Shown here: piece after piece, positions 3,271 to 56,953 of the stretch | Position numbering within the stretch: position 1 is the stretch's first letter | Layout of the letters: every line of letters begins with the position of its first letter | Origin: Octopus vulgaris | Taxonomy: Eukaryota | Direction: 5' to 3' | Length of the DNA: 64,000 nt | Assembly: GCA_951406725.2 (NCBI GenBank) | Contig: OX597817.1 | Span: 49,228,001-49,292,000, forward strand | Notes under the pieces: model-generated | The model's database searches: none | Told to the model about the DNA's origin: nothing | Seen by the model: the letters and a program-made list of their open reading frames with translations, nothing else | Translations under genes and position numbers: made by a program

Positions 3271-3325
3271 GTCTCCGACGAAGGGATATTATTATTAATT
3301 AATATTCTAGAAACAGCTGTAAGAC
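3271..3325 (+). ncRNA. Minimal hammerhead ribozyme motif, family H1 (CCGAYGA core)
   Basis: gtct-CCGACGA-agggatatt...aatattcta-GAAAC-agct-GTA-agac: helix I gtct/agac, AT-rich helix II, palindromic helix III ACAGCTGT. The surrounding element (about 3218-3394) ends at a TA run. Confidence 0.7.
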
Positions 3326-11978: not shown

Positions 11979-12234
11979 AAAACAAATGGGTGTGTGCATA
12001 TGTAGATAGATAAAAATAAATGGGTGTATATATATACATTTATATATATATATATACATATAATAAATATTAGGGAATAAATCCAAATTTACAGGGAAAA
12101 AATCAGATTTAGGATTAAATCCAATTTTATAGTAAAATATTATAAAATATTATTAGAGACAAAACCACTATTTTGCAAAACAAACAAGGAAAGACTTAAT
12201 CAATACATAAAATTTTAATAAATAGTCAAAAAAA

Positions 12235-12277
12235 CCACTACAATTGTTTCTTGTCTTGATCGACAATCTTCAGGTGG
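12235..12277 (-). ncRNA. Hammerhead ribozyme motif, family H2 (mirror copy)
   Basis: Exact reverse complement of 12324-12366. Confidence 0.85.
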
Positions 12278-12323
12278 ACTTCCAATAAGTCAGTTTCAAA
12301 TTTGAAACTGACTTATTGGAAGT

Positions 12324-12366
12324 CCACCTGAAGATTGTCGATCAAGACAAGAAACAATTGTAGTGG
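12324..12366 (+). ncRNA. Hammerhead ribozyme motif, family H2 (canonical core)
   Basis: ccac-CTGAAGA-ttgtc-gatcaa-gacaa-GAAAC-aatt-GTA-gtgg: helix I 4 bp, helix II 5 bp, palindromic helix III ACAATTGT, GUA cleavage triplet. Confidence 0.85.
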
Positions 12367-12482
12367 CGGTTTTTTTGACTATTTATTAAAATTTTATGTA
12401 TTGATTAAGTCTTTCCTTGTTTGTTTTGCAAAATAGTGGTTTTGTCTCTAATAATATTTTATATATACATATATATATATAC

Positions 12483-13180: not shown

Positions 13181-13252
13181 GCGTCGGTGGTGTAACGGTT
13201 AGCATGGTTGCCTTCCAAGCAGTCGATCCGGGTTCGACTCCCGGCCGACGCA
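13181..13252 (+). tRNA. tRNA-Gly (anticodon TCC)
   Basis: 72 nt GCGTCGG...CCGACGC-A with a perfect acceptor stem, anticodon arm GTTGC-CTTCCAA-GCAGT and T-arm CCGGG-TTCGACT-CCCGG. Very close to metazoan Gly-TCC. Confidence 0.96.
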
Positions 13253-16386: not shown

Positions 16387-16438
16387 GTCTTACAGCTGTT
16401 TCTAGGATATTAATTAATAATATCCCTTCATCGGAAAC
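16387..16438 (-). ncRNA. Hammerhead ribozyme motif, family H1
   Basis: Minus strand gttt-CCGATGA-agggatattattaattaatatccta-GAAAC-agct-GTA-agac. Confidence 0.7.
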
Positions 16439-16476: not shown

Positions 16477-16528
16477 GTCTCCGATGAAGGGATATTATTA
16501 ATTAATATCCTAGAAACAGCCGTAAGAC
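16477..16528 (+). ncRNA. Hammerhead ribozyme motif, family H1
   Basis: gtct-CCGATGA-agggatatt-attaatt-aatatccta-GAAAC-agcc-GTA-agac. Confidence 0.7.
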
Positions 16529-19537: not shown

Positions 19538-19585
19538 GTCTCCGATGAAGGGATATAATAAATATCCTGGAAACAGCTGTAAGAC
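19538..19585 (+). ncRNA. Hammerhead ribozyme motif, family H1
   Basis: gtct-CCGATGA-agggatat-aataa-atatcctg-GAAAC-agct-GTA-agac; the element runs into (TATG)n(TA)n. Confidence 0.7.
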
Positions 19586-19782: not shown

Positions 19783-21191
19783 AGTGTTAAGATCAAGGAT
19801 AGCTGACTTCCTGGAGACCCACAAACTCCTAAATGCAAATCAGCATGGCTTTCGCTGTGGCAGGGACTGTCTAACACAGCTCTTTCACCACAATGAAGAT
19901 GTACTCAAAGCCTTGGGAACAGGTTCGAACTCTGATGTCATATATCTTGACTTCAGTAAAGCGTTCGACAAGGTAGACCATAATATCCTACTCTCAAAAT
20001 TGGTAAATGTTGGAATCCGTGGAAAAGTTCTACACTGGATTAAGTATTTCCTGGCGAATAGAACACAACATGTTATAGTTGATGGAGTCCACTCAAGCCC
20101 AGCAAAAGTCACCAGCGGTGTCCCCCAGGGGACTGTCTTGGGTCCGCTACTCTTCATAATTTACATAAACGACATTTCCAGTGTCGTACATTACTGCAAA
20201 GTGAAAATATTTGCTGATGACACTAAGCTCCAGCAAATCGTCAATGAAGAAGCAGACCGAACTCAATTCCAGTCTGATCTATATGCTGTGAGTCAATGGG
20301 CAGACAGAAACAAAATGCAACTGAACGAGGGAAAATTTGAGCTGATGCATTTTGGAAGAAATTTCTCACTAAAACAGCCATACTCTCTTCCTTCAGGGGA
20401 ACCGCTCACAGCCTCTAACAATATCAGAGACCTGGGTGTAATTGTTGATGACGATCTCAGTTGGAGTGCACACGTCAACAAGAAGGTCGATATAGCTCGT
20501 AGGATGAGTTCCTGGATCTTAAGAACTTTCCGGTCCAGAGAACAAGGTGTCATCATACCACTTTTCTCCTCCTTTGTACGGCCACACCTCGAATACTGCT
20601 GCCCACTGTGGTCTCCCCATACAAGACAAAACATCTCCAGGATTGAATCACCCCAGAGGGTACTCACTAAACGAATTGAAGGCATGGCTGCTCTCGATTA
20701 TTGGGATGGCCTTAAAGCCCTGAAACTCTACTCTCTCCAGCGTCGCCGTGAGCGGTACATCATTTGTACGATGTGGAGAATATACCGCCAACTTTGCCCA
20801 AACGGCCTGAACATTAGCTTCAAGGTTCACCCAAGACTGGGACCACGGGCCATACGTCCACTGCTCAATTCAAGATCACAGCATACATGTACACTGCAAC
20901 ATAATTTCTTTTCCTCAACAGGCCCTGCCCTATTCAACATTGTCCCGAAAGAGATCAAAGAGGAAAAGGATCCCATCAACTTTAAACGGAGTCTGGATAG
21001 ATTCCTTCAAAGAATACCAGATAAGCCACCCATAATTGGATACAACTCACCCAACAAAAACTCACTACTTGAATGGACCATAAACAAAACTTGACTTAAA
21101 CAGGATTCAAATAATCCTATCAGGTGGTGCTATTAAGTTAGACATGGCCTGGACCAATGTTTGGTCGAACATATCTAAGTTTATCTAAGTT
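19780..21191 (+). mobile_element. 5'-truncated CR1/L2-group LINE
   Basis: RT frame followed by about 100 nt of 3' UTR and a tandem tail (tatctaagtt)x2; (TA)n on both sides. Confidence 0.9.
19784..21094 (+). CDS. LINE ORF2 reverse transcriptase, C-terminal 436 aa (N-terminally truncated, no real start codon)
   Basis: Motifs [39 protein letters not shown] and RPHLEYC with no stops. Confidence 0.9.
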
Positions 21192-33815: not shown

Positions 33816-34189
33816 TCTATATAAACGGCAGTTTGTCTCTGTGTGTTTCTGTGTGTCTGTTAGGTTGTACCCTCACCCTGACCACAGCTTTCAACCGATT
33901 CTGATGAAACTTGACACACACATAGCCCAATGTCATAATTCAAAACTAACGCAGCGAAAATTTTGAAAAGTTCCCCCAGTTCTGAAAAAAAATCGATAAA
34001 TTCGACATGGGGTCGAGAATCAGAAACACAAACCACAGACTGTCTAGGGGACGCAACTCCACCTTTTTAACTCTCAAAAATAAATTTGCCATAATTTTTT
34101 TTCCATTTTTTTTGCTATTTTTTGGCTATAACTCTCTAAAAATGCTTTATAGTTATTTCCCTTACAAACCCGAGCAACGCCGGGCGATA

Positions 34190-34192
<3 letters not shown>
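33816..34192 (+). mobile_element. Non-autonomous Helitron-like element
   Basis: 5' a|TCtatataaa, internal tgtctg microsatellite and caaccgattctgatgaaacttg, 3' subterminal hairpin cccgagcaacgccggg. The terminal CTRR is absent. It shares its 3' ~100 bp with 50682-50780. Confidence 0.7.
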
Positions 34193-34232
<40 letters not shown>

Positions 34233-34343
34233 CACACACACACACACATATATACATACATGCACACACACATATACTCAAACACGCACACACAGACATA
34301 TATATTGAATTTGTTTTGCCTGTATTAATAGAAAATATATGTA

Positions 34344-44194: not shown

Positions 44195-44295
44195 GATAAT
44201 AATAATAATATTGGGGAGTTTAACTCCAAACTTACAGGGAAAAATTCGATTTATTAATAAATCAAATTTCACAATATATATATATATATATACAC

Positions 44296-50589: not shown

Positions 50590-50681
<92 letters not shown>

Positions 50682-50682
<1 letters not shown>

Positions 50683-51050
50683 TCGCAGTATCGCCCGGCG
50701 TTGCTCGGGTTTGTAAGGGAAATAGCTATATAAGCATTATTAGAGAGTTATAGCCAAAAATAGCAAAAAAAATGCATTAAAAATGATTGACTCATCGTAG
50801 ACATTTCTAGAGAGTTACTTCCCTTATATAATAGCGAAAAAAATGCATTAAAATGGAAAAAAATGATGGTAATTTTTTTTTTAATCGTAGACTCATCGTA
50901 GACTCGCGCTAATACCCAGAAGGGCTCGATATGAATCACGACTATAAGATACCCGGTTTTGGTTAAACTGCACCGCAAAATGTGGGAATAGTTAGGAATC
51001 TAAATCGTAGGAGACAGACACTCAGACAACTTCACTTTTATATATAAAGA
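50682..51050 (-). mobile_element. Non-autonomous Helitron-like element
   Basis: The minus strand starts a|TCtttatatataaaag and ends with hairpin cccgagcaacgccggg then cgatactg-CGAG|t (a CTAG variant); A/T target with no TSD. Confidence 0.75.
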
Positions 51051-56617: not shown

Positions 56618-56621
<4 letters not shown>

Positions 56622-56947
56622 AATATTAGGGAATAAATCCAAACTTACAGGGAAAAATCAGATTTAAGATTGAATCCAATTTTATAGTAAAATATTATAT
56701 TATTAAATTAGAGACAAAACTACTATTATGCAAATCAAACAAAGAAAGACTTAAGCCAATACATAAATTAATTTATATTATTTAGAAATGTAACAATTAT
56801 TAATATCCACTACGATCGTTTCGTGTCTTCAGTCATCAAATCTATGAGTAGTAGACATTCATCAGGTGGTTTCAGAATATTCTTGGCGAGTTTTAAACAA
56901 TTTCTTTGTTTGATTTGCATAATAGTGGTTTTGTCTCTAATTTAATA
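56618..56947. mobile_element. TA-embedded element, family H2, with 47-bp inverted repeat
   Basis: The left end is homologous to 12061-12240. 56701-56747 and 56901-56947 are inverted copies. (TA)n lies on both sides. Confidence 0.8.
56807..56869 (-). ncRNA. Hammerhead ribozyme motif, family H2 (canonical core)
   Basis: Minus strand ccac-CTGATGA-atgtct...agacac-GAAAC-gatc-GTA-gtgg with palindromic helix III ACGATCGT. Confidence 0.85.
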
Positions 56948-56953
56948 TAATAT

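What the first reader, a model, noticed from the sequence alone, without database searches (positions are those of the whole stretch)
56618..56947. Covariation between two H2-family ribozymes supports selected function
Seen: this element shares its terminus with 12061-12240 and has a hammerhead at the equivalent position. Helix I (ccac/gtgg) and the core are kept. The free N7 position differs (A versus U), loop II changes length while the tgtc/gaca stem is retained, and helix III changes from ACAATTGT to ACGATCGT, a double change that preserves the palindrome. Inference: selection acted on the RNA structure, including dimer-competent helix III.
Basis: partly seen in the sequence, partly recalled or inferred. 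Interest (0 to 1): 0.75.

Follow-up and report, generated by a model that had tools for sequence, protein, structure and literature searches.

The report
Hydra-type Penelope transposon hammerhead ends
The two self-cutting-RNA motifs are real and are leftover ends of one family of Penelope-like jumping genes, and the family's history shows that their short palindrome stayed able to pair, likely because the jumping gene needs two RNAs to pair up to cut; this is a new example of a known kind, and this copy probably does nothing for the host.

Summary
Observation confirmed. 56807-56869 (-) and 12235-12277 (-)/12324-12366 (+) are type-I hammerhead motifs in truncated, inverted-end insertions in (TA)n. 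They are ends of a Penelope-like lineage whose intact 839-aa ORF carries the Hydra-clade motifs.

The two-copy argument alone is weak. It is one event (ancestral ACGATCGT to ACAATTGT, two transitions at CpGs), and another pair breaks (U-A to A.C).

Family data rescue it. Of 4018 genome-wide motifs, the variable helix III pair is A-U in at least 2184, G-C in 707, G.U in at least 862, but A.C in only 18, near the mutation background (11). G.U lineages were amplified twice. Thirty stem and core positions are invariant across 16 subfamily representatives. Across 9 hammerhead families this pair is always paired (permutation P=0.002).

Against: helices I and II show no compensatory change, and a U.U subfamily has 341 copies. 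Genomic copies decay in core and flank alike, so selection likely acted on the replicating element, not the host.

Palindromic helix III, covariation and dimers in these ribozymes are published, and the scan found PLE hammerheads in this genome before, on other DNA. Cleavage is untested.

The parts
56618..56952 (-). Copy B: 5'-truncated Penelope-like (Hydra-type) insertion with a short inverted arm, sitting in (TA)n
   Evidence: 95% identical over 292 nt to the end of ORF-bearing locus L143
56807..56869 (-). Type-I hammerhead motif of copy B (subfamily S12)
   Evidence: same motif in the closest genomic copies
56812..56819 (-). Palindromic helix III, ACGATCGT; predicted cut between 56811 and 56810 (GUA/GUGG)
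   Evidence: sequence; self-duplex -10.0 kcal/mol; cut site inferred from the hammerhead consensus
56824..56857 (-). Helix II (TGTC/GACA) with 26-nt loop II; flanking A.C mismatch at 56858/56823
56618..56806 (-). Element 3' end downstream of the ribozyme; the outermost ~75-80 nt ('tail') is absent from inverted arms
   Evidence: inverted arms begin at query position 75-81 in many copies; 90% identical to copy A over 150 nt
56901..56952 (+). Inverted, tail-less, ribozyme-less second arm of copy B
   Evidence: 52 nt, 94% complementary to 56696-56747
12061..12463 (.). Copy A: fold-back insertion of young subfamily S01, end of the lineage with intact 839-841-aa ORFs
   Evidence: 98% identical over 226 nt to the repeat upstream of intact ORFs in L141 and L145
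12235..12277 (-). Hammerhead motif of copy A, left arm (helix III ACAATTGT)
12324..12366 (+). Hammerhead motif of copy A, right inverted arm
44203..44289 (+). Older terminus-only fragment of the same or a related lineage, no ribozyme
   Evidence: 78-81% identity to the A and B termini

Best explanation
Both motifs are type-I hammerheads in the pseudo-LTR of one lineage of Hydra-type Penelope-like retroelements, and their palindromic helix III was likely kept pairable by selection on the replicating element, which is predicted to cut its RNA as a dimer. Shown: the motifs; their place ~270 nt upstream of intact RT + GIY-YIG ORFs, in the same sense; the subfamily history; the counts. Inferred: tandem or separate element RNAs pair through helix III, form two active cores and cut at GUA/GUGG, probably with help from the element's protein; subfamilies that lost helix III pairing did not amplify. 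Copy B itself is a truncated passenger and likely inert.
For: Intact 839-841-aa ORFs carry the A-type motif upstream. Motifs DKT, CxCX5C, CxxC..E, N..CxH, no GxKF/Y and no CX2-5CxxC match the Hydra description. Of 4018 matches: AATT 1843 (81), GATC 707 (80), ATTT 341 (79), GATT at least 862 (48, longer pattern), AATC (A.C) 18 (29), control ATGATCGT 11 (40). In 4 of the 10 A.C loci fetched (L131, L137, L138, L140) the other arm of the same insertion still reads GATC. G.U arose inside S01 (GATC+GATT as one clade rejected, p-AU 1e-66) and is also amplified in S05/S06. 30 of 30 core and stem positions are invariant in 16 subfamily representatives, against 2 of 26 upstream and 10 of 45 downstream columns. 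Loop II lengths of 6-27 nt exclude a coding constraint. Across 9 hammerhead families chosen by helix I of 4 bp or more, the outer variable pair is paired in 9 of 9 (P=0.002) and the central pair is Watson-Crick in 7 of 9 (P=0.004). These pairs would close a loop of 2 or 0 nt in a monomer, so they fit a dimer. Literature: PMC4209133, PMC6765202, PMC11167929.
Against: Within the lineage only one pair shows a clean compensatory change, and it happened once. The alignment test is modest (22 of 500 shuffles reach the covariation score; 163 of 500 reach the number of covarying pairs), and RNAalifold finds 0 of 8 pairs with a double change. The U.U subfamily (self-duplex only -2.9 kcal/mol) has 341 copies and an 822-aa ORF. 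The outgroup subfamily has an A.C in helix II and U.U at the fourth helix I pair. The base pair of helix II is paired in only 7 of 17 rows. The terminal 115 nt are also well kept (93 of 115 columns). Representatives were picked with a motif pattern, so the 30-of-30 figure is partly circular. With identical interiors merged, the central pair drops to 5 of 7 (P=0.02 Watson-Crick, 0.07 with G.U). In the Anolis element, ribozyme mutants inserted normally in vitro and no reads ended at the cut. No ORF was found linked to subfamily S12 itself.
Confidence: 0.8

Rival explanations
1. The helix III change is mutational drift: the ancestral ACGATCGT lost both CpGs, and the palindrome survived by symmetry; the ribozyme is conserved only because the lineage is young.
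For: GATC is ancestral and the change happened once. Both substitutions are CpG-type transitions. Two of four double-CpG outcomes are palindromes. ORF DNA is only ~10% diverged between the S01 and S11 lineages. A U.U lineage amplified.
Against: A-to-G, against CpG decay, founded a G.U lineage inside S01, while A.C has 18 copies. C15.2 and G16.2, the other halves of the CpGs, never changed among 16 representatives. P that 30 of 30 positions stay invariant at the ORF's rate is 0.01 (all sites) or 0.0004 (third positions). Cross-family covariation uses all four Watson-Crick types.
Confidence: 0.08
2. The structure is selected, but not for self-cleavage: helix III is an RNA-RNA or protein-binding dimerisation signal for the RNP, or the ribozyme rides along as a parasite of the element.
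For: Cleavage was dispensable for insertion in vitro in the Anolis element, with no reads ending at the cut. Naiads thrive without canonical hammerheads, and Craig et al. raise parasitism. Low activity of PLE ribozymes in vitro.
Against: All 12 catalytic-core positions are invariant among the 16 representatives, which a pure pairing signal would not need. The Anolis ribozyme does cleave when protein is present.
Confidence: 0.1
3. These genomic copies have been domesticated and are selected for a host function such as transcript processing.
For: None found. B's motif is intact.
Against: B is 97-99% identical to other dispersed copies, so intactness is expected. Rare alleles: 13 in 90 constrained columns against 57 in 285 flank columns, P=0.33 (copies were top BLAST hits, which limits power). 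Core-damaged copies are seen. Read-through RNA of copy A would pair each motif with its own antisense.
Confidence: 0.02

Closest known systems
Hammerheads of Hydra-clade Penelope-like elements, including Hydra-1_Obim (Craig et al. 2021, PMC8557442; section 11, passages and supplement parts seen)
   Same: C-terminal GIY-YIG, DKT, CxCX5C, CxxC and CxH motifs, (TA)n targets, tandem and inverted ends, a tail at one end, a 3' hammerhead with an extra nucleotide on both sides of stem II as in many rows of their File S2.
   Different: Different family from Hydra-1_Obim (its ribozyme has other stems and a 9-nt helix III). Helix III here is an even 8-nt palindrome, against mostly 9-10 nt in their Hydra rows. 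The tail is ~75-80 nt, against 30-40. ORF-to-ribozyme distance reaches 2-3.2 kb, while their elements are generally under 3 kb in total. The RWK motif reads RIKWK.
Minimal and small-palindrome type-I hammerheads of metazoan PLEs (Cervera and De la Pena 2014, PMC4209133; parts 1-2 of 4 and supplement file 2 part 2 seen)
   Same: Short helix I, extra nucleotide after A9, palindromic helix III with varying 4-nt interiors, many families 'full of covariations', inverted pairs 100-700 bp apart, proposed dimer action.
   Different: G10.1-C11.1 of their consensus is absent here (U-A after a variable mismatch). No octopus entry in the searchable supplement (file 1 could not be searched).
PAc (Poseidon, Anolis) protein-assisted hammerhead (PMC11167929; passages and section 3 part 2 seen)
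   Same: Hammerhead in the pLTR, AT-rich targets, tail defined by two end points.
   Different: There the ORF starts inside stem II. Here the ORF starts ~270 nt downstream, and the ATG at stem II opens only 9-17 codons.

Membership tests
Type-I hammerhead ribozyme | Core CUGANGA...GAAA...UH with helices I-III, ends in helix I | tested here: met
Type-I hammerhead ribozyme | Match to an Rfam hammerhead model at gathering score | tested here: not met
   only a tRNA in the window; the evalue mode was not run
Type-I hammerhead ribozyme | Self-cleavage at the NUH site | not testable with these tools
   needs an in vitro assay or raw RNA reads
Metazoan PLE hammerheads (Cervera 2014) | Located in the pLTR, same sense as the ORF | tested here: met
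   L141, L142, L145, L150, L156 and others; B's own subfamily only through S11 (L143)
Metazoan PLE hammerheads (Cervera 2014) | Palindromic helix III | tested here: met
   exception: U.U subfamily, 341 of 4018
Metazoan PLE hammerheads (Cervera 2014) | G10.1-C11.1 pair | tested here: not met
   many published Hydra rows also lack it
Penelope-like element, EN+ | Single ORF with RT and C-terminal GIY-YIG | tested here: met
   RT motifs IQIDI, PMGAPDS, YRDD and VVY..YIG; Atlas clusters with PF26215 and PF01541 at 0.95-0.98; homologues with PF26215; direct Pfam scan and PDB search found nothing significant
Penelope-like element, EN+ | pLTR-ORF-pLTR tandem, inverted 5'-truncated copy, one-sided tail | tested here: met
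   L156 and L141/L142 layouts
Hydra clade | DKT; CxCX5C linker; CxxC and CxH around E/N; no GxKF/Y; no two cysteines inside GIY-YIG | tested here: met
   one cysteine inside GIY..YIG
Hydra clade | RWK motif | tested here: inconclusive
   RIKWK at the equivalent place
Hydra clade | (TA)n insertion preference | tested here: met
   both window copies are flanked by (TA)n; not counted genome-wide
Hydra clade | Grouping with published Hydra RTs in a phylogeny | not tested
Non-LTR retrozyme | Tandem head-to-tail non-coding units with one hammerhead each | tested here: not met
   A and B are single or inverted ends of a coding element

The most novel reading that the evidence does not exclude
Helix III palindromes act as a self-recognition code among co-resident Penelope-like families. 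Homodimers are stable (AATT -6.4, GATC -10.0, AGCT -11.1, GTAC -9.8 kcal/mol), most cross-family pairs are weak (A with B -1.9), and the G.U form bridges A and B (-6.1, -7.9). Lineages would then change their pairing code through a wobble intermediate, and dimer cleavage would be family-specific.
Probability: 0.1. Interest if true: 0.55.

Novelty: new member of a known kind. Interest (0 to 1): 0.2.

Why it matters
The kind is known. What this adds is a well-resolved natural series in one young, apparently intact Hydra-type lineage: paired states amplify, the A.C state does not, and one U.U state is tolerated. The role of PLE hammerheads is still open (dispensable for insertion in vitro in the one tested element). 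An intact ORF plus natural helix III alleles gives ready material to test dimer cleavage and its effect on transposition.

Tried and rejected
Rfam gathering scan: no hammerhead. Pfam and PDB scans of the 839-aa ORF: nothing significant. Single-strand folding did not favour the full hammerhead fold. My first pair count used a mis-registered structure string and was replaced. Coding constraint on the ribozyme was rejected. The retrozyme reading was rejected for A and B. Expression: no RNA holder listed on record, and all listed runs are contigs, which cannot show RNA ends; no reads were laid, so expression and cleavage in vivo stay open. Lunse et al. 2017 is not held; I saw only its title and a review's summary, so overlap with its variants is unchecked. 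The ORF fragment near L089 is ~1 kb from the ribozyme and was used only as a search query. Rows dropped: 20 of 36 EN hits went into the tree; 45 of 234 terminus-anchored places had no recognisable ribozyme, mostly truncated arms; 12 of 21 clusters failed the helix I filter, of which 5 were palindromic and 7 not. Clade groups were named after the tree had been seen.

Full report
OBSERVATION. The features are in the sequence. Copy B (56618-56952) has a type-I hammerhead motif on the minus strand at 56807-56869. Copy A (12061-12463) is a fold-back with the motif on both arms. N7 is U in B and A in A, loop II is 26 against 6 nt, and helix III is ACGATCGT against ACAATTGT. The first 150 nt are 90% identical. 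Both copies sit in (TA)n. Rfam finds no hammerhead at gathering score, and monomer folding does not favour the hammerhead fold.

WHAT IT IS. The genome is 2.8 Gb, probably an octopus; that rests on one partial named hit and earlier scan notes. It holds 4018 matches to the 3' half of the motif with free helix III interior, against 21 for the control. A protein fragment from a flanking locus led to intact 839-841-aa ORFs. These have the A-type ribozyme and terminus ~270 nt upstream in the same sense, 98% identical to copy A. L156 shows the full inverted pLTR / pLTR / ORF / pLTR layout. B's subfamily was not seen linked to an ORF; its sister S11 is (L143, 95% identical to B over 292 nt). The protein has RT motifs, a C-terminal GIY-YIG, DKT, CxCX5C, CxxC..E and N..CxH, and lacks GxKF/Y and CX2-5CxxC. 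These are the features Craig et al. give for the Hydra clade of Penelope-like elements. Pfam and PDB sequence scans were blank; Atlas and homologue hits carry PF26215 and PF01541. Inverted arms lack the outer ~75-80 nt, like the PLE 'tail' but longer.

TEST 1: HOW MANY EVENTS? Terminus-anchored extraction gave 189 ribozymes of 234 places, sorted into 13 subfamilies by loop II. Trees were built from flanks and from ORF DNA (20 of 36 EN hits). GATC subfamilies are basal and paraphyletic (p-AU 0.00015 against one clade), the derived group is one clade (100/99), and an outgroup subfamily reads GATC in 28 of 31 arms. So A versus B is one event, GATC to AATT, made of two CpG-type transitions. Two of the four ways to lose both CpGs are palindromic anyway, so the pair alone proves little.

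TEST 2: WHICH STATES AMPLIFY? Of 4018: AATT 1843, GATC 707, ATTT 341; GATT at least 862 under a longer pattern, nearly all from two lineages among the first 100 listed (97 of 100); AATC (A.C) 18. The mirror CpG control ATGATCGT has 11. In 4 of 10 fetched A.C loci the other arm of the same insertion is still GATC, so A.C looks like late mutation. G.U arose within S01 against the CpG direction. Copy numbers are not independent events; the evidence is a handful of lineage founders.

TEST 3: CONSERVATION. In 16 representatives, 30 of 30 core and stem positions are invariant, against 2 of 26 upstream, 10 of 45 just downstream and 93 of 115 at the terminus. At the ORF's rate of change in 6 lineages, P is 0.01 (all sites) to 0.0004 (third positions). 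The choice of representatives by motif makes this partly circular. Loop II lengths of 6-27 nt and 9-17-codon frames exclude coding constraint. On the 17-row alignment the variable helix III pair is A-U 7, G-C 7, G.U 3, unpaired 0, but the whole-structure test is modest (22 of 500 shuffles for the score), and helices I and II show no compensatory change.

TEST 4: OTHER FAMILIES. A pattern excluding this lineage has 4809 matches against 319. Among 50 loci fetched (21 clusters), 9 families had helix I of 4 bp or more. Their interiors are AGCT, CTTG, TCGG, GATC, GATC, GTAC, GATT, TCGA, CCAG: outer pair 9 of 9 paired (P=0.002), central pair 7 of 9 Watson-Crick (P=0.004). After merging like interiors: 7 of 7 (P=0.005) and 5 of 7 (P=0.02). 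Relatedness among families is not modelled.

AGAINST. The U.U subfamily has 341 copies, an 822-aa ORF and a weak self-duplex (-2.9 kcal/mol). The outgroup has A.C in helix II and U.U in helix I. The base pair of helix II is paired in 7 of 17 rows. In the one PLE tested, cleavage needed protein, was dispensable for insertion in vitro, and no reads ended at the cut.

WHO IS SELECTED? Rare alleles among genomic copies fall 13 in 90 constrained columns and 57 in 285 flank columns (P=0.33). This shows no sign of selection on inserted copies, with limited power. Selection therefore likely acted on master elements.

MECHANISM. Shown: anatomy, linkage to the ORF, history and counts. Inferred: the variable pairs would close a loop of 2 or 0 nt in a monomer, so they likely form between two RNAs. 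Self-duplexes are -6.4 (A), -10.0 (B), -5.8 (G.U) and +0.3 kcal/mol (A.C). Two ribozymes from tandem or separate transcripts would pair, probably helped by the element's protein, and cut at GUA/GUGG. What the cut does for transposition is open.

WHAT IS KNOWN. Cervera and De la Pena 2014 (main text parts 1-2 of 4; supplement file 2 part 2; file 1 not searchable) already report PLE hammerheads with covariation, palindromic helix III, dimers and inverted pairs. A review (passages) repeats this. Craig et al. 2021 (passages, section 11, supplement parts) list Hydra-clade hammerheads, including one from an octopus family different from this one. A retrozyme preprint was seen as passages only; its supplements are closed. 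Lunse et al. 2017 could not be read. Five literature searches and one supplement motif search (long runs are cut there) did not show this family; Repbase and Dfam were not searchable. The scan already noted PLE hammerheads in this genome on other DNA; a search by this sequence found nothing.

VERDICT. Real feature, largely correct inference, known kind: a new family of Hydra-type PLE hammerheads. Interest 0.2. The self-recognition-code reading remains possible at about 10%.

Noticed in passing
window 3275-3321 (+), 16391-16434 (-), 16481-16524 (+), 19542-19581 (+): Four motifs of another hammerhead family (helix III ACAGCTGT or one change from it, helix I GTCT/AGAC) all read CCGA instead of CTGA in the core, suggesting an amplified U4C core variant.
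   Followed up: no
L141, L143, L154, L156, L091-L093: Distance from ORF end to the 3' ribozyme varies from ~0.2 kb (L156) to 2.1-3.2 kb between subfamilies. Long ORF-less inverted arms of 1.85-4 kb with internal repeats exist.
   Followed up: partly
L287 (G000:C1:33099608-33105376), L205-L207; related pieces at window 50646-50912 and 34076-34253: Tandem ~545-nt units, each with a hammerhead (helix III ACGTACGT), retrozyme-like; earlier scan notes describe such arrays.
   Followed up: partly
L091 and L092 (G000:C1:8.39 Mb and 8.77 Mb): Two near-identical 4.7-kb inverted insertions whose two arms differ at the same two positions near the ribozyme; likely a segmental duplication.
   Followed up: no
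L150, L151, L157 (subfamily S03): Amplified subfamily with a central U.U mismatch in helix III (341 copies) and a long ORF: a natural test allele.
   Followed up: partly
window 19784-21094 (+): 436-aa open frame with an RVT_1 domain (E 4e-25); another retroelement, class not determined.
   Followed up: no
window 13181-13252 (+): tRNA gene (Rfam RF00005, 62.5 bits).
   Followed up: no
window 56618-56692 and 12061-12140: One-sided tail of ~75-80 nt, longer than the 30-40 bp usually described for PLEs.
   Followed up: partly
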